A stretch of DNA of 64,000 bases from Alphaproteobacteria bacterium (lineage in GTDB: Bacteria; Pseudomonadota; Alphaproteobacteria; GM7ARS4; G965262615), in contig OZ253545.1 in NCBI GenBank assembly GCA_965262615.1, forward strand, positions 992,001 through 1,056,000, written 5' to 3'. The position numbers and the translations under genes were made by a program. Numbering within the stretch: the first letter of the stretch is position 1; each line of letters opens with the position of its first letter. Under the pieces are notes generated by a model. It was not told where the DNA came from. It saw nothing but the letters and a program-made list of their open reading frames with translations, and ran no database searches. This document shows positions 1 through 23,131 of this stretch, one piece after another.

Positions 1-1079
1 GGCGTGCGCTCAAACAAATGGGAAAAATGACGATAGGCGGCGATTTTATCATCAAGATAGCGATAGGCAATCCAACCAGTCATCCACACTCCCTCATCAA
101 AACCGCCGGGCCATAGCTGCGTGTGAGCTGAGGCAAGCGTGTAGGCATCGCTGTATTTTTTGTCATGAAGCAGTTGCTGAATGCGTTCTTCAAAATGATC
201 CCACAGGGCGCGCGGGGCGAGCTTTTCGTAAGAATCGGTCTCGTGAATGAGTCGGCTATCCATGGCGATGTCGCCGAAGAGAATGCCCCACGGATTTTTA
301 CGCAGCGCGTGACTCTCTTCCAGCAGGGCGCGCGGCAGGGTTCCTTCGCGCGGTTTGGTGAGTTTTTTCTCACGCCATGTGGTGGGGACGATGTGATGCT
401 GGTCATCTTGTTTCAGGATGGCGGCGATTTGTGCAAAGTCTCCCTCGCGAAACAAACGCTCAAGGCGGGCGGCGGTGTCTTGGGGGGTGATGAGATGTCC
501 GAATTGATCAAGAAATTGACGGCGCGTGGTGTCATCCATGTAGCTCTCGCGCCACAATTGACGAGACCCCCCCGTCACGCGGCGTTCGTTGCCTTGAGCA
601 ATAAGAGCTTGCAAAAAGCGCGTGTGGGCGGCAAGGGTGATGGGCGGATAGGAATCAAACCAATCCACCACTTCTTGAGGTGAGGCGGAATCGGGCAGTT
701 GCAGCTCGGTGGCAATGAGAAGCGTTTGGCGGTGAGGAAAGTATGTGCGCCGTTCAATGAAATCGCGCAACACACTGAACTGTCCCTTGTCTTCGTTGCG
801 ATGGCGCACAAATCGCCACCAAGTGACATAATCGGACAGCAGTTGAAATCCCAGCACATTGGCTTCTTCTTGGGCGAGCGTGCCGTTGCCGTTGGTGAGG
901 GCGGTGAGGATGCGTTTGAGAGATGCCTCATCCACACCGCGCACGGTGACACCATCTTTGGTGGTGAGGCTATAGAATGCGGGATTGGATTCGGGCGGGC
1001 GTTCAACGGGCAGAGGCGAAGGCGCGCGACTGATGGCATCAGGCGACCAAAGGAACAAAAGTAATAAAAAAATAGGCAT
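1..1079 (-). CDS. Soluble lytic transglycosylase (Slt-like), N-terminal part; runs off window start
   Basis: Manual translation from ATG 1079: MPIFLLLLFLW signal-like start, then ...LRDFIERRTYFP...VVDWFDSYPPIT...WMTGWIAYRYLDDKIAAYRHF, typical of the alphaproteobacterial Slt superhelical region; divergent from dapA as usual. Not in the ORF track, presumably because no stop lies in the window. Confidence 0.75.
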   Translation of the reverse strand, partial: MPIFLLLLFLWSPDAISRAPSPLPVERPPESNPAFYSLTTKDGVTVRGVDEASLKRILTALTNGNGTLAQEEANVLGFQLLSDYVTWWRFVRHRNEDKGQFSVLRDFIERRTYFPHRQTLLIATELQLPDSASPQEVVDWFDSYPPITLAAHTRFLQALIAQGNERRVTGGSRQLWRESYMDDTTRRQFLDQFGHLITPQDTAARLERLFREGDFAQIAAILKQDDQHHIVPTTWREKKLTKPREGTLPRALLEESHALRKNPWGILFGDIAMDSRLIHETDSYEKLAPRALWDHFEERIQQLLHDKKYSDAYTLASAHTQLWPGGFDEGVWMTGWIAYRYLDDKIAAYRHFSHLFERT

Positions 1080-1090
1080 GGATCGCGGTC

Positions 1091-1119
1091 TTGCCGATGA
1101 AGTCTCTCTTGCATAGAAT
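1091..1119 (+). promoter_or_regulatory. Putative sigma70 promoter of dapA-smpB
   Basis: TTGCCG-N17-TAGAAT upstream of ATG 1135. Confidence 0.5.
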
Positions 1120-1134
1120 AGGAAAATAATTGCC

Positions 1135-2052
1135 ATGACGCAACCACTTGCACCACCTCACAATATTAAGGGAGCTTGCACGGCTTTGGTCACGCCGATG
1201 AATGATGACGGCGTGGATGAGGCGGCGTTTGTGGCTCTGGTGCGCTGGCAGATTGATGAGGGCATTCATGGACTTGTGCCGTGTGGCACGACGGGAGAAT
1301 CGCCCACCTTGTCGCACGATGAGCATCGCCGTGTGATTGAGCTGTGTGTGAGGGAGGTGGCGGGGCGTGTGCCAGTCATTGCGGGGTGTGGTTCTAACAG
1401 CACCGATGAGGCAATTGATTTGGTGCGTCATGCCGAAAAAGTGGGAGCGGATGCGGCTCTGGTGGTGACTCCTTACTACAACAAGCCAAGCCAACGGGGG
1501 CTTTATGAGCATTTTGCGGCGGTGGCGCGAGCATCGTCCCTGCCGCTGATTATTTACAACATTCCCGGGCGGTGCGTGGTGGATATGTCCGTTGCCACCA
1601 TGATGCGGCTGGCGACTGATTTTCCCACAATTGTCGGGGTGAAGGATTCCAGTTGTGACCTCATGCGTCCGCTCTTGTATCGCGCGCATAATTCAGCTCA
1701 GGGCGAGCATGATTTCATTCAGCTGTCCGGTGAGGATGGCACGGCTTTGGCGTTTATGGCTCAGGGGGGTGTGGGATGTATTTCGGTGGCATCCAATGTT
1801 GCGCCGTCTTTGTGTGCCGAGATGTTTGAGCTGTGGTGGGCGGGAGATGTGCGCGAAGCGATGCTTCTCAATGAGCATCTGTGTGTCTTGTATGAGGCGT
1901 TGTTTTTAGAGGGCAATCCCGCACCCACCAAGTATGCCTTGCATCTGATGGGCAAATGTGAGAACACATTGCGGCTGCCTCTGGTGTCCGTCAGCGAGGA
2001 GACGGAACAAAAAATCGCCGTGGTGTTGCAGTCCTTGCAATTGTTTCCATGA
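1135..2052 (+). CDS. dapA: 4-hydroxy-tetrahydrodipicolinate synthase
   Basis: [26 protein letters not shown] motifs. Confidence 0.97.
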
Positions 2053-2062
2053 AACAGCGAGC

Positions 2063-2545
2063 ATGAAACAGAGAATTGGGCGCGATGTGACGGTGACGGT
2101 CAATCGCAAAGCCCGTCATGACTATGCCATTGAGGAGCAGGTTCAGGCGGGTTTGGTGTTGCTGGGCACGGAGGTGAAATCGTTGCGGGCGGGCAGAGTC
2201 AATTTGAGCGATTCCTACGCGGCAATGCGCGGCAAACAGATGGTGCTGATGAATGCCCACATTGCCCCCTATGACCATGCGTCAAGAGAGCACAACCATG
2301 CGCCGCGGCGCATTCGGGCGTTGCTGCTCACCAAACGGGAGATGAAGCGTCTGGCGGGCGCGGTGACCCAAAAGGGCTTGACTCTGATTCCGCTGTCCAT
2401 TCGCTTTGATGCGAACGGCATCGCTAAGTTGTTGCTGGGCTTGGGCAAGGGACGCAAAAAAGGCGACAAGCGAGAGGCAATCAAACAAAAAGAATGGAAA
2501 CGAAAACAAGGACAGCTTCTGCGCCGCAAAGAGAGGGGAGATTAA
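2063..2545 (+). CDS. smpB: SsrA-binding protein
   Basis: NRKARHDY, GLVLLGTEVKSLR, GKGRKKGDKRE; start reassigned to ATG 2063. Confidence 0.96.
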   Translation: MKQRIGRDVTVTVNRKARHDYAIEEQVQAGLVLLGTEVKSLRAGRVNLSDSYAAMRGKQMVLMNAHIAPYDHASREHNHAPRRIRALLLTKREMKRLAGAVTQKGLTLIPLSIRFDANGIAKLLLGLGKGRKKGDKREAIKQKEWKRKQGQLLRRKERGD

Positions 2546-3939
2546 CGGCACAGCAATTGTTGTGCTTCTGATTTATTTTCGATTCTGTCATTGTATTCCA
2601 ATAAATCGCAAGGTGTGTCACCAGCTTTGTCTTTGGCATGAATATCTGCTCCTGCGTTGATGAAGTCTTTGATGTCTACTCCATATACGGCATTTGATGC
2701 AGCAAAATGAAGTGGTGTTTCCTCATTGTTGTTTTTGGCATTAATCTCTGCTCCTGCACTGATGAGATTATTGATGATTCCTCCATGTACGGCATTATTT
2801 GATGCAGCATAATGAAGTGGTGTTTCACCACTGTTGTTTTTGGCATTGATATCTGCTCCTGCCTTGATGAGCTCTCTGATGCGCTCAGTATTGTCAGCGT
2901 CAAGATAGATGGGGGGGTCGGATTCAAGGACAAAGTCGTAGTTATGGGATTCAACAGAGATATGAAGTGGTGTTTTCCCATATTCGTCTTTGGCATTGAT
3001 ATCTGCTCCTGCCTTGAGGAGTTCTTTGATGACTCCAACGCTACCATTGTCTGCAGCAGCCTTATGAAGTGGTGTTTCACCATCGTTGTTTTTGGCATGA
3101 ATGTCTGCTCCTGCACCGATGAGTTCTTTGATGATTTGAATATTGCCTTTAGCAGCAAAATGAAGTGGTGTTTCACCATCGTTGTTTTTGGCATTAACAT
3201 CTGCTCCTGCGTTGATGAATTCTTTGATGACCTGAACATTATCATTGTCTTCAGCGTCATGAAGTGGTGTTTCACCATCGTTGTTTTTGGCATTAACATC
3301 TGCTCCTGCGTTGATGAGTTCTTTGATGACATCAGCATTGTCATTGTGTTCAGCAGCTAGGTGAAGTGGTGTTTCACCATCGTTGTTTTTGGCATTAACA
3401 TCCGCTCCTGCGTTGATGAGTTCTTTGATGACATCAGCATTGTCGCTGTTTTCAGCAGCCTCATGAAGTGGTGTTTCACCATCGTTGTTTTTGGCATTAA
3501 CATCTGCTCCTGCCTTGATAAGTTCTTTGATGACTTGAGCATTGTCACTGAATACAGTAGCCAAAGCAAGTGGTGTCCTACCCCATTTGTTTTTGGCATG
3601 AATGTTTGCTCCTGCTTTGATGAGTTCTTTGATGACCTGAGCATTATCGTTCAATGTAGAAGCATAATGAAGAGCTGTCCAGCCATCATCATCTTTGGCA
3701 TTGACATCCACACCCGCCGCTATAAATTCTCGCAATCGCGAAGGCGTTAAATCAGCCCATTGATTTTTAACATAATTCCAGTCACCTTTGATTAAGCGTT
3801 GCCAATGACCTCTGGCGTAGGCATTATCCCAGTCACCTTCAACCATGCGTTGCCATTTTTGAGAGGGAGAGTCGCCGCCACTGATGGCGGGGGTGGTGGC
3901 GATGGTCAAAACAAGGGCAATAAAAATCCACGGCTTCAT
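2542..3939 (-). CDS. Secreted ankyrin-repeat protein (class I, ~10 repeats plus Cys-containing C-cap)
   Basis: Signal peptide MKPWIFIALVLTIATTPAISG; 34-aa TPLH..A...VIKELI.AGAD.NAK repeats; TPCDLL...LCR end. Confidence 0.93.
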   Translation of the reverse strand: MKPWIFIALVLTIATTPAISGGDSPSQKWQRMVEGDWDNAYARGHWQRLIKGDWNYVKNQWADLTPSRLREFIAAGVDVNAKDDDGWTALHYASTLNDNAQVIKELIKAGANIHAKNKWGRTPLALATVFSDNAQVIKELIKAGADVNAKNNDGETPLHEAAENSDNADVIKELINAGADVNAKNNDGETPLHLAAEHNDNADVIKELINAGADVNAKNNDGETPLHDAEDNDNVQVIKEFINAGADVNAKNNDGETPLHFAAKGNIQIIKELIGAGADIHAKNNDGETPLHKAAADNGSVGVIKELLKAGADINAKDEYGKTPLHISVESHNYDFVLESDPPIYLDADNTERIRELIKAGADINAKNNSGETPLHYAASNNAVHGGIINNLISAGAEINAKNNNEETPLHFAASNAVYGVDIKDFINAGADIHAKDKAGDTPCDLLEYNDRIENKSEAQQLLCR

Positions 3940-3942
3940 TTT

Positions 3943-4008
3943 TCAATCCTTCATGGGATGCTTGGCATGGACTTTACCATCCAATCGGCTATGAGGTCAA
4001 TATCAAGC
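3943..4008 (-). repeat. Degenerate copy of the MFS transporter 3' end (LIADWMV..VHAKHPMKD*) serving as leader/RBS of the ankyrin gene
   Basis: Colinear with 11505-11570; same TGA-AAA-ATG junction. Confidence 0.75.
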
Positions 4009-4013
4009 TGTGC

Positions 4014-4117
4014 TGGGCAAGGGACGCAAAAAAGGCGACAAGCGAGAGGCAATCAAACAAAAAGAATGGAAACGAAAACAAGGACAGCTTTTGCGCCGCC
4101 GTGAAAGAGGCGACTAA
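4014..4117 (+). repeat. Duplicated 3' end of smpB (GKGRKKGDKREAIKQKEWKRKQGQLLRRRERGD*)
   Basis: 4014-4090 identical to 2442-2518 (77 nt); last 9 codons recoded. Confidence 0.95.
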
Positions 4118-5628
4118 GGGCAGAGCAATCTCTGTGCTTCTGGGTTATCTTGGAGTTGGTCATTGAATAACAATAAATCGCAAGGTGTGTCACCAGCTTT
4201 GTCTTTGGCATGAATATCTGCTCCTGCGTTGATGAGATTATTGATGATTCCTCCATGTACGGCATTATTTGATGCAGCATAATGAAGTGGTGTTTCACCA
4301 CTGTTGTTTTTGGCATTCATGTCTGCTCCTGCCTTGATGAACTCTCTGATGAGAGAAGCTTTGTCCTTGTCAACATAGATGGGGGGATTGGTGTAATATT
4401 CAAAGTTGAAGTCATGGGATTTAACAGCGAGATGAAGTGGCGTTTCCCCAATTTTGTTTTTGGCATGAATGTCAGCCCCTGCGTTGATGAGTTCTTTGAC
4501 GACATTGACGATAGCTGGATTGTTTTCGAATCCGATGCACGCCGTCTCGTCCCAATTTTCCTCGCACCAATTTTCATTTCTTGTCGTATCATGAAGTGGT
4601 GTGTCACCATCGTTGTTTTTGGCATTCATGTCTGCTCCTGCCTTGATGAGTTCTTTGATGATATGAGGATTGTCATTGTTTGAAGCAGCAAAATGAAGTG
4701 GTGTGCCACCAACGATGTTTTTGGCATGGATGTTTGCTCCTGCGTTGATGAGTTCTTTGATGACCTGAGCATTGCCATTGTATGAAGCGGCAGAATGAAG
4801 TAGTGTCCAGTCATCATCAGCTTTGGCATTGACATCTGCTCCTGCCTTGATGAGTTCTTTGGTGACCTGAGCATTGCCATTTAATTTAGCAGCTCGATAA
4901 AGTGGTGTGAAGCCATCGTTGTTTTTGGCATGAATGTCTGCTCCTGCTTTGATGAGTTCTGTGATGACCTGAGGATTGTCATTGTTTCCAGCAGCAAAAT
5001 GAAGTGGTATGTTCCCATATTCGTCTTTGGCACGAATGTCTGCTCCAGCCTTGATGAGTTCTTTGATGATTTCAACATTTTTATTCCGTTCAGCAGCATA
5101 ATGAAGTGGTGTTTCATCATCGCTGTCTCTGGCATGAATGTCTGCCCCTGCCTTGATGAGTTCTCTGATCACCTCAATGCTTGTATTCCACCGTGCAGCT
5201 AGATGAAGTGGTGTTTCACCCCAGTTGTTTTTGGCATTCATGTCTGCTCCTGCACCGATGAGTTCTTTGATGACCTGAGCATTGCCATTGTCTGCAGCAG
5301 CAAAATGAAGCGGTGTCCTGCCCACTCTGTTTTTGTCATGAATGTTTGCTCCTGCCTTGATGAGTTCTTTGATGACATCGGCATTGTCATTGTGTATAGC
5401 AGCTTTATGAAGTGGTGTGTCCCAAAAGTGGTCTTTGGCATTGACATTGATACCTGCCGCTATAAAGTTCCGCAACTGCTCTATCGTTAAATCAGTCCAT
5501 TGGTTTCTAACATCATCCCAGTCACTTTCAATCATGTGCTGCCATTTTTGAGAGGGAGAGTCGCCACCACTGATGGCGGGGGTGGTGGCGATGGTCAAAA
5601 CAAGGGCAATAAAAATCCACTTCTTCAT
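4114..5628 (-). CDS. Secreted ankyrin-repeat protein (class I, ~11 repeats, inserted Cys loop)
   Basis: MKKWIFIALVLTIATTPAISG signal; ANK repeats; WCEENWDETAC insert; TPCDLL...LCP. Confidence 0.93.
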   Translation of the reverse strand: MKKWIFIALVLTIATTPAISGGDSPSQKWQHMIESDWDDVRNQWTDLTIEQLRNFIAAGINVNAKDHFWDTPLHKAAIHNDNADVIKELIKAGANIHDKNRVGRTPLHFAAADNGNAQVIKELIGAGADMNAKNNWGETPLHLAARWNTSIEVIRELIKAGADIHARDSDDETPLHYAAERNKNVEIIKELIKAGADIRAKDEYGNIPLHFAAGNNDNPQVITELIKAGADIHAKNNDGFTPLYRAAKLNGNAQVTKELIKAGADVNAKADDDWTLLHSAASYNGNAQVIKELINAGANIHAKNIVGGTPLHFAASNNDNPHIIKELIKAGADMNAKNNDGDTPLHDTTRNENWCEENWDETACIGFENNPAIVNVVKELINAGADIHAKNKIGETPLHLAVKSHDFNFEYYTNPPIYVDKDKASLIREFIKAGADMNAKNNSGETPLHYAASNNAVHGGIINNLINAGADIHAKDKAGDTPCDLLLFNDQLQDNPEAQRLLCP

Positions 5629-5742
5629 TTTTCAATTCCTCAAGAGGCTTTGGCAAGCGCGGGTATTATAACACAATTAGATATCAAAGTAATGTCCCGT
5701 TGTGAGGCACGAGACGATTTCGCGCGCACGAATTACGAATTA
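5629..5742 (-). promoter_or_regulatory. Conserved inter-cassette spacer with extended -10 (TGtTATAAT) and GAGG RBS
   Basis: TATAAT at 5665-5670; homologous to spacers 7592-7711, 9020-9105, 10682-10794. Confidence 0.65.
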
Positions 5743-6942
5743 ACGGCACAACAATTTCTTTGCTTCTGAATTATCTTGGAGTTCGTCATTGTATAACAAT
5801 AAATCGCAAGGTGTGTCACCATCGTTGTCTTTTGCATGAATGTTTGCTCCTGCATTGGTGAGTTCTTTGATGAGATTGACGAGATTGACGACAGCTGGAT
5901 TGGGAATTTCAAATGGAATGCAAAAACCTTCCTCGTAACTCGCGCACAACTTGTCATCTCTTGCAGCAGCTCGATGAAGTGGTGTTTTACCCTCATTGTC
6001 TTTTGCATGAATGTTTGCTCCTGCATTGATGAGTTCTTTGATGACATGAGCATTGTCATTATTTGTAGCAGCAGCATGAAGTGGTGTGTTATCATAGTCG
6101 TCTTTGGCATGGATGTCTGCTCCTGCATTGATGAGTTCTTTGATGATATGAGGATTATCATTTAAAAAAGCAGCCTCATGAAGTGGTGTGTCACCCCCGT
6201 TGTCTTTGGCATGAATGTCTGCTTCGGCATTGATGAGTTCTTTGATGACCTGAGGATTGCCATTGTTTGAAGCAGCCTCATGAAGTGGTGTGCTACCGTA
6301 GCTTTCTTTGGCATGAATGTCTGCTCCCGCTTTGATGAGTTCTTGGATGACATAAAAACTGTCATCTCTTGCAGCAGCTCGATGAAGTGGTGTTTCATCC
6401 TCATTGTTTTTGGCATGAATGTCTGCTCCCATTTTGATGAGTTCCCTGATGACCTGAACATTGTCATTGGATGCAGCAGCGTCATGAAGTGGTGTTTGAC
6501 CAAAATAATTTTTGGCATGAATGTCTGCTCCTGCCTTGATGAGCTCCTTGATTACCTCAACGCTTTCATTATTGCGTACAGCAGCATGAAGTGGTGTGGT
6601 ATCCCAGATGCCTTTGGCATGAATATCTGCTCCTGCCTTGATGAATTCTTTGATGACCTGAGCATTGCCATTGTACTCAGCAGCGTGATGAAGTGCTGTC
6701 CAACCATTGTCTTCGGCATTGATATTGACACCCGCCGCTATAAATTGTCGCAATCGCGAAGGTGTTAAAGTAGCCCATCGGCTTTCAACAACATACCAGT
6801 CACCTTCAACCATGTGCTGCCACTGCTTTCTGGCGTAGGCATCTTGTAGTTGTTGGTCTTCTTGTTGCTGAGAAAAAGAGTCACCACTGGCGATGGTCAA
6901 AGCAAGAGCAATAAAAATCCAATGTTTTGTTTGCAATATCAT
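5740..6942 (-). CDS. Secreted ankyrin-repeat protein (class I, ~8 repeats, inserted Cys loop)
   Basis: KHWIFIALALTIASG signal; LCASYEEGFC insert; TPCDLL...LCR. Confidence 0.92.
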   Translation of the reverse strand: MILQTKHWIFIALALTIASGDSFSQQQEDQQLQDAYARKQWQHMVEGDWYVVESRWATLTPSRLRQFIAAGVNINAEDNGWTALHHAAEYNGNAQVIKEFIKAGADIHAKGIWDTTPLHAAVRNNESVEVIKELIKAGADIHAKNYFGQTPLHDAAASNDNVQVIRELIKMGADIHAKNNEDETPLHRAAARDDSFYVIQELIKAGADIHAKESYGSTPLHEAASNNGNPQVIKELINAEADIHAKDNGGDTPLHEAAFLNDNPHIIKELINAGADIHAKDDYDNTPLHAAATNNDNAHVIKELINAGANIHAKDNEGKTPLHRAAARDDKLCASYEEGFCIPFEIPNPAVVNLVNLIKELTNAGANIHAKDNDGDTPCDLLLYNDELQDNSEAKKLLCR

Positions 6943-6981
6943 AATTCAATCCTATAATAATTCGGACGGAGGAAAAAGACA

Positions 6982-7560
6982 ATGAGTGGACAAAACAAAG
7001 CTGCATCTTCAGTTTTACGGCATATTCTAGTATGGCTTTTGATTATCAGTTCAATTGTTGGAATTATTTTGCTGGTGGATTTTCTTCTTACTTCAAAGCA
7101 GGATCTTTTTGTTGGCTTATTGGCAGGGCTTGTGCCAACTGTCGTAACCATTTGGCAGTATAAACAACAAACTAAACGGGAGCATGAACAGTGGTTGCTT
7201 CGAAACCGTGATGCTTTTATGATTGAAATTATCAATATTTTTGTCTCTATGTTGGATAGAAAAGACAAAACTGATTCTGAACAAGAACAAAAGGAACTTT
7301 TAGAAAGAGTTAGAGCTTTGCGACCCGCTCTTCTCGCTCATGCACCCCCCTCAACATTAAAGGCGTATACAGCATTGCAGGATTTATCAGGGAAGAACGT
7401 TATGAGGGAGGGTGAGCGATTTTTTAGAGCAATTCGCAGTGATTTGGGTCATGATGATAGCCAATTAAGACCTGGTGAGGTATGGGGCACTCTTCTTGAT
7501 GAGGAAGGCAGAAAAGAAATTTTGCGAGCCTGCAGGGGCGAAAAATACGATGACTTATAA
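6982..7560 (+). CDS. Hypothetical protein with two N-terminal TM helices, inserted antisense in the ankyrin array
   Basis: GGAGG RBS; two hydrophobic segments; AT-rich. Confidence 0.75.
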   Translation: MSGQNKAASSVLRHILVWLLIISSIVGIILLVDFLLTSKQDLFVGLLAGLVPTVVTIWQYKQQTKREHEQWLLRNRDAFMIEIINIFVSMLDRKDKTDSEQEQKELLERVRALRPALLAHAPPSTLKAYTALQDLSGKNVMREGERFFRAIRSDLGHDDSQLRPGEVWGTLLDEEGRKEILRACRGEKYDDL

Positions 7561-7591
7561 AAAGTAAGCAAATCATCGTCTGTTCATCTCA

Positions 7592-7657
7592 TCAATCCTT
7601 CATGTGATGCTTGGCATGAACGGATTCTACCATCCAATTGGCTATCAAAGCAATGCC
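7592..7657 (-). repeat. In-frame copy of the MFS 3' end (GIALIANWMVESVHAKHHMKD*) containing a TTGCTT...TAGAAT promoter
   Basis: Gap-free alignment to the MFS C-terminus AIAFISNWLIKPVHSKHHMKE* (11505-11570). Confidence 0.85.
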
Positions 7658-7708
7658 CCGTTGTGAGGCATGAGACGATTGCGCGCGCCCGCGTCGCGCG
7701 GCAACAAA

Positions 7709-9019
7709 TTAACGGCATAGCATTTTCTTTGCTTTTGATTTATTTTTGAGGTCGTCATTGTGTTCCAATAAATCGCAAGGTGTGAGTCCATTGTCGGTTC
7801 TGGCATGAATGTTTGCTCCTGCATTGATGAGTTCCTTGATGGTATGAGCATTGCCATTGAGTAATGCAGCAACATGAAGCGGTGTGTAGCCACCGTTGTT
7901 TTTGGCATGAAGATTTGCTCCTGCTTTGGCGATTTCCCTGATTGCCTCAACGCTTTCATCAACGAGTGCGGCGATATGAAGTGGTGTGCCGCCCTTGTTG
8001 TCTTTGGCATTGAGGTCTGTTCCCGCTCTGATGAGTTCCCTGATCATTTCAATTTTGTTATTATTGTTGAGTGCAACAGCGATATGAAGCGGTGTGTAAC
8101 CGGTGTTCTCTTTGGCATTAAGATTTGCTCCTGCTTTGGTGAGTTCCCTGATCATCTCAATGTTGTTGTTATTGTTGAGTGCAACAGCAATATGAAGCGG
8201 TGTGTAACCGGTGTTATCTATGGCATGAACATTTGCTCCTGCTTTGGTGAGCTCTCTGATCAACTCGCTTTTGTTAGTGGATGCAACAGCATGAAGCGGT
8301 GTGAAACCTCTGATGTTTTTGGCATGCACATCTGCTTTTGCGTTGATCAGTTCCCTGATTACCTCAATGCTTTCATTAATAAATATCGCGACATGAAGTG
8401 GTGAGTCATCATTGTTGTCTTCGGCATGAATATTTGCTCCTGCCTTGATGAGTTCCTTGATGACATGAGGATTGTTATTGCTCGCGGCGGCAATATGAAG
8501 TGGTGTGAAACCACTGTCGCTTTTGGCATGAATATCCGCTCCTGCCCCGATGAGTTCCTTGATGGCATGGGGATTGTCATTGAGTAATGCCGCAATATGA
8601 AGAGGTGTGAAACCGTTGTCATTGACGGCACAAACATCCGCTCCTGCATTGATGAGTTCCTTGAAGGCATGGGCATGACCATTTTTTATAGCAACATGAT
8701 GAAGCGGTGTGTTGCCAATGTTATTTTGGGCATTGATATCTGCGCCCGCTTTGATGAGCTCCTTGATGACATGAGCATGGACATTAAATGCAACAGTGAC
8801 ATGAAGTGGCGTGTTGCCCTCTTTATCTCTCATGTTGATATTCACGCCTGCTGCTGTAAATTGTCGCAATCGCGACGGTGTTAAATCACGCCACTGATTT
8901 TTAACATAATTCCAGTCACTTTTGACCATGAGCCGCCAATGAGTTCTCCGAGACAAAGACCTGCCAACGCGCATGGCAGTGGCGGTCAAAGCAAGAGCAC
9001 TACGAATCCACCTCTTCAT
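7709..9019 (-). CDS. Ankyrin-repeat protein (class I, ~10 repeats, degenerate signal peptide)
   Basis: MKRWIRSALALTATAMRVGR start; ANK repeats; TPCDLL...LCR. Confidence 0.92.
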   Translation of the reverse strand: MKRWIRSALALTATAMRVGRSLSRRTHWRLMVKSDWNYVKNQWRDLTPSRLRQFTAAGVNINMRDKEGNTPLHVTVAFNVHAHVIKELIKAGADINAQNNIGNTPLHHVAIKNGHAHAFKELINAGADVCAVNDNGFTPLHIAALLNDNPHAIKELIGAGADIHAKSDSGFTPLHIAAASNNNPHVIKELIKAGANIHAEDNNDDSPLHVAIFINESIEVIRELINAKADVHAKNIRGFTPLHAVASTNKSELIRELTKAGANVHAIDNTGYTPLHIAVALNNNNNIEMIRELTKAGANLNAKENTGYTPLHIAVALNNNNKIEMIRELIRAGTDLNAKDNKGGTPLHIAALVDESVEAIREIAKAGANLHAKNNGGYTPLHVAALLNGNAHTIKELINAGANIHARTDNGLTPCDLLEHNDDLKNKSKAKKMLCR

Positions 9020-9054
9020 TTTTCAATCCTCAAGAGGTTTTGGAAAGAATGAAC

Positions 9055-9083
9055 ATTATCACACAATTGAGATATCAAAGCAA
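9055..9083 (-). promoter_or_regulatory. Putative sigma70 promoter in the conserved spacer
   Basis: TTGCTT-N17-GATAAT; spacer near-identical to 10682-10765. Confidence 0.6.
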
Positions 9084-9129
9084 TGGAAAGGCACGAGACG
9101 ATTGCGCGGCATCTATGAACACTCAATTC

Positions 9130-9735
9130 TCAATTTTCCAGTATTAGATTTTCGGCTTCGCGGCTGTTTCTGAGGGCATTGTTTTGCAACAAGAATTCAT
9201 AGACTCTTTTTCCGTTGTTGTCTCGGGCGTAGGTGCGTGCGCCGGCGAGGATGAGGGTGCGTAGCACCGCCACATTGCTGTTGGAACGAGCGGCGACATG
9301 AAGAGGCGTTCTGCCCCATCCCGTGCGAGCGCGAACGCTTGCTCCCGCCGCAATGAGGCGTTTGGTGACATTGACATCAGAATTCATCGCCGCCGCCCAA
9401 TGCAAGGGCGTGTAGCCACTACCGTCTGTGCGTGTGAGAGATGCCCCCGCCTTGAGAAGCGCATCTATGGTTTTCACATCGCCATAGCCGGCAGCCCAAT
9501 GGATGGCGGCGGAGCGATCCTCACGGTAGATGGTGTGAATATCCGCACCGTCTTGAATAAGTCTTTTCGTCCAGTTGGTTGTGCCTTTGCGGATGGATTC
9601 ATGCAGCGGCGGCACGACATCCACCCCAATGTATCTATTTTTGAGACGCTCCATGAACTGAGCACAGCCGGTAAGAGTCACCGCCGCCATAAAAACAAAA
9701 ACAAAGCGAAAGAGATGAGTCAAGCGGTAATTCAT
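9130..9735 (-). CDS. Ankyrin-repeat lipoprotein (divergent repeat type)
   Basis: Start reassigned to ATG 9735; hydrophobic leader plus lipobox LTGC; TPLHWAA, TPLHVAA repeats. Confidence 0.85.
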   Translation of the reverse strand: MNYRLTHLFRFVFVFMAAVTLTGCAQFMERLKNRYIGVDVVPPLHESIRKGTTNWTKRLIQDGADIHTIYREDRSAAIHWAAGYGDVKTIDALLKAGASLTRTDGSGYTPLHWAAAMNSDVNVTKRLIAAGASVRARTGWGRTPLHVAARSNSNVAVLRTLILAGARTYARDNNGKRVYEFLLQNNALRNSREAENLILEN

Positions 9736-9826
9736 TGGTTCAATTCCTTGTAGAATGGTTACCTTTAGGCAAGGTGAATGACAAAAGGAAGAGGTGAGCG
9801 TTCTCGCGCCGCCGTGAAAGAGGCGA

Positions 9827-21940: not shown

Positions 21941-23131
<1,191 letters not shown>

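What the first reader, a model, noticed from the sequence alone, without database searches (positions are those of the whole stretch)
2519..4117. Two synonymously recoded versions of the SmpB C-terminal tail
Seen: after 77 identical nt, active smpB ends CTG CGC CGC AAA GAG AGG GGA GAT TAA (LRRKERGD*) while the copy ends TTG CGC CGC CGT GAA AGA GGC GAC TAA (LRRRERGD*). That is five synonymous changes and one K/R change in 9 codons. The distal remnants at ~9806-9830 and ~10770-10794 resemble the copy, not the active gene. Neutral decay of a duplicate would be neither this synonymous nor this clustered. Inference: both tails were once under selection as SmpB, so the proximal ankyrin cassette arrived with a replacement tail from a diverged lineage (target-gene-restoring insertion), and new units are added at the smpB-proximal end.
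Basis: partly seen in the sequence, partly recalled or inferred. Interest (0 to 1): 0.75.

Follow-up and report, generated by a model that had tools for sequence, protein, structure and literature searches.

The report
Recoded smpB tail in ankyrin array
A leftover copy of the last 104 bases of the ribosome-rescue gene smpB sits between two ankyrin genes, and it spells almost the same protein end with different codons. This most likely results from ordinary duplication and recombination in a fast-changing gene array, not from a new kind of mobile cassette.

Summary
Bases 2442-2518 equal 4014-4090 (77 of 77). The next 27 bases differ at 8 places yet read LRRKERGD* and LRRRERGD* (P about 2e-4 to 1e-3 for random changes).

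Context changes the reading. smpB is followed by six tandem, secreted ankyrin genes and then an MFS gene. Several unit boundaries carry remnants of the 3' ends of both flanking genes, which is the mark of tandem duplication. The two tails lie in an 80-base island (2519-2598, 23 differences) between perfect tracts of 77 and 147 bases. That pattern is a recombination mosaic, not decay.

- The R-type tail looks older: it is shared by two distal remnants and by 2 of 2 outgroup proteins.
- The K-type tail is in 5 of 5 near relatives.
- Contigs of another strain show a third silent version, next to a different ankyrin gene end.
- The genome has only two tyrosine recombinases, both far away. The junction sequences occur nowhere else in it.

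Best reading: homologous exchange, with crossovers in the conserved smpB block and the last ankyrin repeats, swaps the junction segment. SmpB function then filters which tails persist. Interest is moderate to low.

The parts
2063..2545 (+). smpB, 160 aa, intact
   Evidence: Translation. Pfam PF01668 E 7.8e-51.
2442..2518 (+). 77-base block of smpB that codes the conserved KGRKK..DKR..W part of the tail; repeated exactly at 4014-4090
   Evidence: Conserved tail motifs are named in PMC4151336 (passages read).
2519..2545 (+). Active tail (K-type), LRRKERGD*
   Evidence: The same residues occur in 5 of 5 near relatives.
2519..2598 (.). 80-base island of divergence between units 1 and 2. It covers the SmpB tail, the hairpin and the last 18 ankyrin codons.
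   Evidence: 23 of 80 bases differ, against 0 of 142 in the adjacent tracts. 10 of 19 ankyrin residues differ.
2547..2566 (+). Terminator-like hairpin after the smpB stop, inside the ank1 coding end
   Evidence: 8 pairs followed by a T-rich run. The fold z-score of -1.7 is not significant.
2542..3939 (-). ank1, 465 aa, signal-peptide-like N-terminus; its stop overlaps the smpB stop
   Evidence: Ank E 1.4e-84.
3937..4013 (.). Decayed remnant of the MFS gene's 3' end, upstream of ank1
   Evidence: 31/36 identity to 11499-11534. BLAST E 2.5e-5.
4014..4117 (+). Non-functional copy of the last 104 bases of smpB: block copy 4014-4090 plus R-type tail 4091-4117, LRRRERGD*
4114..5628 (-). ank2, 504 aa
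   Evidence: Perfect tracts shared with ank1: 4171-4317 and 5567-5620.
5740..6942 (-). ank3, 400 aa
7592..7655 (.). MFS 3' remnant upstream of unit 3
   Evidence: 47/64 identity to 11505-11568 (D20, 32, 42).
7709..9019 (-). ank4, 436 aa
9797..9830 (+). Old smpB tail remnant, R-type
   Evidence: 26/34 identity to smpB 2514-2545. 25/27 identity to the copy's tail.
9827..10681 (-). ank5, 284 aa
10770..10794 (+). Old smpB tail remnant, R-type
   Evidence: (23/27 identity to the copy's tail).
10791..11501 (-). ank6, 236 aa
11505..13244 (-). MFS transporter gene, the distal flank of the array
   Evidence: MFS_1 E 2.2e-22.

Best explanation
The segment 4014-4117 is a dead copy of the end of smpB. It lies at the joint between units 1 and 2 of a six-unit tandem array of secreted ankyrin-repeat genes, wedged between smpB and an MFS gene.

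The array arose by tandem duplication of a stretch that began inside the smpB 3' end and ended inside the MFS 3' end. This is why unit boundaries carry remnants of both genes.

The array is then reshaped by homologous exchange, either between units or between sister strains' arrays. One such exchange had crossovers in the conserved 77-base smpB block and in the last ankyrin repeats. It swapped the 80-base junction segment, which holds SmpB's last 9 codons, the shared hairpin and the ankyrin C-terminus.

The R-type tail is the older version and survives in the internal joints. The K-type is the version now in use.

The versions differ silently because a segment that sits next to smpB must encode a working, positively charged SmpB tail, whereas the ankyrin side of the same island is free to change.

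Shown: the array anatomy, the mosaic, the silent bias, the lack of an integrase nearby. Inferred: that exchange rather than mutation made the island, and its direction.
For: - Mosaic: 0 differences in 77 bases, then 23 in 80, then 0 in 65 plus 88 bases apart from one 96-base repeat-unit indel.
- ank1 and ank2 are otherwise only about 70-85% alike, yet they share four perfect tracts of 54-88 bases at their ends. Short exchange between these two units is therefore frequent.
- MFS 3' remnants lie upstream of ank1 (31/36) and of unit 3 (47/64).
- smpB remnants lie at 4014-4117, 9797-9830 and 10770-10794.
- The junction sequences occur only in this array.
- No donor for either tail exists elsewhere in the genome.
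- There are only two PF00589 recombinases, at genome positions 22457 and 409253, against the array near 994000.
- The K-type tail is in 5 of 5 near relatives. R occupies that column in 2 of 2 outgroups at 69-73% identity.
- Run X1 has a joint 4099 to 5739 bridged by 13 letters. Together with window 5739 onward they read K E R G D stop with other codons for R and G, followed by a unit-3-type ankyrin end.
- The SmpB side of the island is silent or conservative. The ankyrin side changes 10 of 19 residues.
- The array has 42-45% G+C against 55-58% in the flanks.
- Earlier agents found other slots in this genome swapped by homologous recombination.
Against: - No full-length sister array could be fetched, so no exchange event is seen directly.
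- Neither island has an exact donor in this genome. The best match is 83%.
- It is not known which of the X1 tails is attached to X1's intact smpB, because the contigs break in the repeat.
- The identity tract runs exactly to the left end of homology at 4014. A fresh illegitimate joint predicts this more simply than gene conversion does.
- The two distal remnants may descend from one older remnant, so they are not independent witnesses for the older state.
Confidence: 0.5

Rival explanations
1. A single-gene ankyrin cassette, carrying its own replacement smpB end, inserted into the smpB 3' end. Insertion was either site-specific or by single crossover of a circular unit within the block. It displaced the resident R-type tail distally, and new units join at the smpB-proximal end.
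For: - Unit 1 is flanked by perfect 77-base direct repeats, and the active gene is restored.
- The displaced tail is the older type.
- The newest joint has fresh smpB sequence but an old MFS remnant.
- X1 shows another tail version beside another ankyrin end.
Against: - There is no integrase in or near the array. The genome has only two tyrosine recombinases, both far away.
- The unit and its ends occur nowhere else in the genome.
- A donor diverged enough to differ at 8 of 27 tail bases should also differ in the 77-base block, and it does not.
- The K-type tail is in 5 of 5 near relatives.
- Decay is not ordered by position.
Confidence: 0.15
2. Divergence in place. The copy is a frozen snapshot of the ancestral tail. 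The active tail then changed by ordinary substitutions under purifying selection, and the 77-base block and the ankyrin end were later made identical again by short gene conversion.
For: - Polarised by the distal remnants, 6 of the 8 changes lie on the active branch, where silent or conservative change is expected.
- Short perfect tracts between units 1 and 2 show that conversion happens.
- The X1 version is partly intermediate. It shares AAA GAG with the active tail and GGC with the copy.
Against: - Six changes in 12 adjacent bases imply near-saturation, while the unselected copy shows only 2 private changes in 27 bases.
- Identity reaches exactly to the joint at 4014, which conversion does not predict.
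- The window and X1 differ at 3 of 6 bases in two tail codons, against about 3.5% in dapA-smpB (44 of 1272).
Confidence: 0.2
3. Coincidence of low-complexity sequence. The tail is purine-rich, so slippage or a paired 4-base deletion and insertion could give similar K/R/E/G residues without selection.
For: A local aligner prefers an alignment with a 4-base gap (j2). Purine-only codons code only K, R, E and G (established code).
Against: - Both tails have the same length and frame.
- Four of the five single changes are at third codon positions.
- A third version in X1 again keeps the residues.
Confidence: 0.05
4. Assembly chimera or collapsed repeat.
For: The region is highly repetitive, and short-read contigs break in it.
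Against: - The genome is a single 1.54-Mb contig.
- X10 has a contig across the joint, 3902-4099, with 1 difference.
- X1 contigs carry both the copy-type tail and a block repeat boundary at 2471.
Confidence: 0.02

Closest known systems
Gene-turnover hotspots without mobile elements, flanked by core genes that recombine (Oliveira et al. 2017, PMC5635113; abstract read)
   Same: Variable, A+T-richer content sits between conserved core genes. No mobility genes are present. A recombination breakpoint lies inside the flanking core gene.
   Different: Here the content is one tandemly amplified gene family. The crossover zone lies inside the coding end of smpB, so each unit carries its own version of the last codons. 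Strain-to-strain turnover is seen only in fragmentary contigs.
Integrative islands and prophages that insert into the 3' end of tRNA, tmRNA or protein genes and bring a replacement end (recalled knowledge; no call)
   Same: There is a direct repeat of the target's 3' end on both sides of the inserted unit. The target gene stays intact, and the displaced end lies distal.
   Different: There is no integrase. The unit is a single ankyrin gene and has no copies elsewhere. The target is smpB itself, not the tmRNA gene, which lies about 870 kb away.
Tandem gene amplification through an illegitimate joint, followed by unequal crossing-over and array homogenisation (general knowledge, recalled; a poxvirus example, PMC6115191, was seen in a search listing only)
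   Same: Units are head to tail. Joints are made of the two end sequences. Perfect short tracts occur between otherwise diverged copies.
   Different: At least two joint classes exist, with about 104 bases of smpB against roughly 25-45 bases. Units are old and diverged, at about 75% identity, not a recent amplification.
Expanded ankyrin-repeat proteins of sponge-associated bacteria (papers seen in search listings only, e.g. PMC6372511)
   Same: Many secreted ankyrin genes occur in a small genome whose relatives turn up in runs labelled sponge metagenome.
   Different: Those listings give no sign of an array tied to smpB. My searches found no paper on it.

Membership tests
SmpB (Pfam PF01668) | Match to the family model above its cut-off, full length | tested here: met
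   E 7.8e-51, 172 bits against a cut-off of 27, residues 12-153.
SmpB (Pfam PF01668) | Basic C-terminal tail with the KGKK-like and DKR motifs and a Trp | tested here: met
   KGRKK, DKR and W are present. The motifs are named in PMC4151336.
Integrase-driven island with a target-restoring att site | Tyrosine or serine recombinase encoded in or beside the inserted unit | tested here: not met
   PF00589 matches only at genome positions 22457 and 409253. Pfam on the array genes gives only Ank and MFS. Serine recombinases were not searched.
Integrase-driven island with a target-restoring att site | Direct repeats of the target end flanking the unit, with the target gene left intact | tested here: met
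   77 of 77 bases at 2442-2518 and 4014-4090. smpB is intact.
Integrase-driven island with a target-restoring att site | The same element at other sites or in other genomes, or an empty site in relatives | tested here: inconclusive
   No other copy in this genome. Relatives' contigs are too short to show empty sites.
Tandem amplification via illegitimate joint | Head-to-tail units whose joints combine the two end sequences of the duplicated stretch | tested here: met
   An MFS 3' remnant is joined to an smpB 3' remnant at 3937-4117. Related joints lie at the other unit boundaries.
Tandem amplification via illegitimate joint | One and the same joint in every unit | tested here: not met
   The joint at 4013/4014 keeps 104 bases of smpB. 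The others keep about 25-45 bases and belong to another joint family. More than one event is implied.
MGE-free recombination hotspot | Content differs between close strains while the flanking core genes are kept | tested here: inconclusive
   X1 and X3 contigs show other sequence right after the smpB stop, and X1 shows other unit orders. No contig spans the array.
Integron | intI integrase with attI at the promoter-proximal end, and attC sites | tested here: not met
   No integrase. The promoter-proximal end of the array is the MFS gene. No Rfam or other structured element was found.

The most novel reading that the evidence does not exclude
The end of smpB works as an integrase-free docking handle. 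Each ankyrin cassette carries a private, silently recoded copy of SmpB's last codons plus the conserved 77-base block. Cassettes can then be captured, stacked and swapped at the smpB 3' end by plain homologous recombination between strains. SmpB function polices every version, so the tail lineages are as old as the cassette lineages.
Probability: 0.15. Interest if true: 0.65.

Novelty: new member of a known kind. Interest (0 to 1): 0.35.

Why it matters
It is a clean small example of how a fast-changing effector-like gene array can pull the coding end of a housekeeping gene into its recombining unit. It also shows how purifying selection leaves a silent-only signature on one side of a recombination island, while the other side (the ankyrin C-terminus) changes freely.

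The internal joints act as fossils of earlier smpB tails. With long-read sister genomes they could be used to order the array's history.

It does not reveal a new mobility mechanism.

Tried and rejected
**Close relatives with DNA**
- SmpB against 40 relatives of the genome collection gave at best 56% identity.
- Genome contigs gave at best 57% and metagenome contigs at best 56%. The 80 best loci were kept from each, and none is close.
- Near relatives exist only as proteins.
- Contigs of four runs (4 of the 11 listed) were laid on 1200-6200. They are fragmentary and the difference table was cut (436 rows not shown). The tail of the roughly 9%-diverged X3 relative therefore could not be read.

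**Other searches that led nowhere**
- A donor elsewhere in the genome for either tail: only chance words of 10-12 bases.
- The tmRNA gene next to smpB as an island target: it is at genome position 125475, far away.
- Known RNA families in 1-15000: none.
- smpB remnants as ankyrin terminators: terminator-like sites lie behind ank1, ank2, ank3 and ank6. However, folding energies are within the range of shuffles (z -0.3 to -1.7), so this stays a guess.
- An ankyrin gene near smpB in distant relatives: 0 of 189 loci.
- Earlier notes of this scan near the place, in look-alike windows and by words: nothing.
- Papers on an smpB-linked ankyrin array: none found in two searches.

Supplements of papers were not opened.

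Full report
**What is there**

smpB occupies 2063-2545 on the + strand. It is 160 aa and matches Pfam SmpB at E 7.8e-51.

Six ankyrin-repeat genes converge on it from the - strand:
- 2542-3939
- 4114-5628
- 5740-6942
- 7709-9019
- 9827-10681
- 10791-11501

All have a similar hydrophobic N-terminus. An MFS transporter gene follows at 11505-13244. The stop codon of ank1 overlaps the stop codon of smpB.

The window is part of a single 1.54-Mb contig. The array has 42-45% G+C against 55-58% in dapA-smpB and in the MFS gene.

At an offset of 1572 bases, 2442-2518 equals 4014-4090 at 77 of 77 positions.

The next 27 bases differ at 8 positions. Five codons carry one silent change each, and one codon reads AAA against CGT. 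The two ends read LRRKERGD* and LRRRERGD*.

Chance tests:
- Eight random substitutions leave one or fewer residue changes in 0.024% of 200,000 trials.
- Five random single changes are all silent in 0.067% of trials, or 0.12% with a transition bias.

The two distal remnants resemble the copy. Identity is 25/27 and 23/27 to the copy, against 20/26 and 20/24 to the active tail. A 15-base word of the copy's tail recurs only at 9809 and 10773 in the whole genome.

1. **The array is a product of tandem duplication.**
   - Upstream of ank1 (3937-3972, 31/36) and of unit 3 (7592-7655, 47/64) lie decayed remnants of the MFS gene's 3' end.
   - The other upstream regions are related to these (families D13, D16, D19, D20).
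   - At the 4013/4014 boundary an MFS 3' remnant is joined to an smpB 3' remnant. That is the expected joint when a stretch running from inside smpB to inside the MFS gene is duplicated head to tail.
   - Direct similarity to smpB is clear for 4014-4117 (97/104 with gaps), 9797-9830 (26/34) and 10770-10794 (19/24).
   - Units 3 and 4 are linked only through their similarity to unit 6's joint (59/70 and 53/65).
   - The joint at 4013/4014 keeps 104 bases of smpB and the others far fewer, so there was more than one event.
   - The newest joint pairs fresh smpB sequence with an old MFS remnant, so it involved the smpB end of the array.

2. **The two tails are not the end of a decaying copy.**
   - They sit in an island of divergence. 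Bases 2519-2598 differ at 23 of 80 positions.
   - On the far side, 2599-2663 equals 4171-4235 (65 bases) and 2760-2847 equals 4230-4317 (88 bases). Unit 1 has one extra 96-base repeat unit in between.
   - Fisher's test of flanks against island gives about 1e-10, computed conservatively with one mismatch allowed in the flanks.
   - ank1 and ank2 are otherwise about 70-85% alike. They share one more near-perfect tract at the N-terminus (3851-3931, 80 of 81).
   - The pattern is therefore a recombination mosaic. Point mutation cannot place 23 changes in 80 bases and none in 224.

3. **Inside the island the two strands behave differently.** The SmpB side has one conservative residue change in 8. 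The ankyrin side changes 10 of 19 residues.

**Which tail is older**

- The R-type codons CGT GAA AGA GG(C/G) are shared by the copy and both distal remnants.
- The two outgroup SmpB proteins at 73% and 69% identity have R in that column.
- The five other near-identical SmpB sequences in the large protein collection (95-99% identity) all end in LLRRKERGD.
- The R-type is therefore the older form and the K-type is the form now used by the whole close clade.

Polarised this way, six of the eight differences fall on the active tail's branch and two on the copy's.
- One of the copy's two changes (GAT to GAC) is the only change that keeps a stop codon for ank2 on the other strand.
- Selection on the copy as SmpB is therefore not demonstrated.
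- The two distal remnants may share one ancestor, so they are not independent.

**Evidence from other strains**

Contigs of four public runs were laid on 1200-6200 (4 of the 11 runs listed). They are short because of the repeats.

- **X10** is about 2.7% diverged in dapA-smpB (30 of 1109). It has a contig across the joint, 3902-4099, with one difference.
- **X1** is about 3.5% diverged (44 of 1272).
  - One contig ends at 2471, which fits a repeat that starts at 2442 there too (my inference).
  - One contig carries the copy-type tail (4036-4240, 5 differences) and then continues into unit-1-type repeats.
  - One contig runs from 4099 through 13 other letters (AAAGAGCGCGGCG) into 5739 onward. 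It reads K E R G D stop with different codons for R and G, followed by a unit-3-type ankyrin end.
  - That is a third silent version of the tail beside a different neighbour.
  - It differs from the window's active tail at 3 of 6 bases in two codons, far above the background.
  - I cannot tell which X1 tail belongs to X1's intact smpB.
- **X3** comes from a run labelled sponge metagenome. It has a colinear 541-base match across 2077-2617 with 50 differences. The printed table was cut, so its tail could not be read.

**Mobility**

- The genome has only two PF00589 recombinases, at positions 22457 and 409253, whereas the array is near 994000.
- The tmRNA gene is at 125475.
- The junction sequences, the ankyrin C-terminal segment and the upstream remnants occur only in this array.
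- No Rfam family matches.
- None of 189 loci around distant smpB genes has an ankyrin gene like ank1.

**Reading**

The best-supported account has three steps.
1. Tandem duplication built the array and put the end of smpB inside the repeating unit.
2. Homologous exchange between units, or between sister strains' arrays, swaps the junction segment. Its crossovers lie in the conserved 77-base block and in the last ankyrin repeats.
3. Only segments that encode a basic, helix-compatible SmpB end persist next to smpB.

Passages read in PMC4151336 state the following:
- Residues 142-160 of the E. coli tail form a helix in the mRNA channel.
- Positively charged residues there matter.

This account explains the sharp boundaries, the silent bias, the free change on the ankyrin side, the older tail in internal joints, the third version in X1 and the lack of mobility genes.

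It matches what earlier agents reported for other slots of this genome. It also matches the general picture of hotspots without mobile elements (abstract of PMC5635113).

I give it 0.5. Three things limit the confidence:
- No exchange is seen directly.
- No exact donor exists in this genome.
- The identity tract reaches exactly to the joint.

**Rivals**

- **Cassette insertion with a restoring end, 0.15.** It has the right geometry. However, it has no recombinase and no other copies, and it predicts differences in the 77-base block that are not there.
- **Divergence in place with later conversion of the flanks, 0.2.** It explains why most changes lie on the active branch. However, it needs near-saturation in 12 bases while the unselected copy barely changed.
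- **Low-complexity coincidence, 0.05,** and **assembly error, 0.02,** are unlikely.

**Novelty**

The parts are known: tandem amplification joints, concerted evolution, recombination hotspots flanked by core genes, and purifying selection. What is unusual is only that the last codons of a housekeeping gene belong to the swapped segment, so that several silent versions coexist.

Two literature searches found nothing on an smpB-linked ankyrin array. Supplements were not opened.

Noticed in passing
window 6982-7560 (+): A 192-aa ORF on the opposite strand sits inside the array, between the start of ank3 and the MFS remnant. It has no Pfam match, and its N-terminal part looks hydrophobic.
   Followed up: partly
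window 9130-9759 (-): A seventh ankyrin gene of a different lineage (209 aa) lies in a more G+C-rich stretch, with a lipoprotein-like N-terminus by eye. It is inserted between units 4 and 5 and splits an older joint.
   Followed up: partly
window 3160-3513: Inside ank1, four neighbouring 102-base ankyrin repeats share exact tracts of 41-59 bases. This points to recent repeat expansion within the gene.
   Followed up: partly
window 2546-2600, 4118-4172, 5744-5800, 7713-7770, 9831-9890: The array's ankyrin proteins end in a conserved non-repeat tail with a Cys next to the last residue (..LLCR or ..LLCP). Its middle part is highly variable between units and, from contig variants at 2572-2585, between strains.
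   Followed up: partly
window 13308-13841, 13911-14594 and genome about 205 kb before the window: Further ankyrin genes lie beyond the MFS gene and in a second cluster. They share only generic repeat similarity, not the junction sequences.
   Followed up: no
genome C1:125475-125777: The only tmRNA gene is of the permuted (two-piece) type and lies about 870 kb from smpB.
   Followed up: no
window 2512-2527, 4083-4100, 5694-5715, 10752-10774 (- strand): Terminator-like hairpins with T runs lie just behind the stops of ank1, ank2, ank3 and ank6, inside the smpB sequence or its remnants. The remnants may be kept because they end the ankyrin transcripts. Folding energies are not significant.
   Followed up: partly
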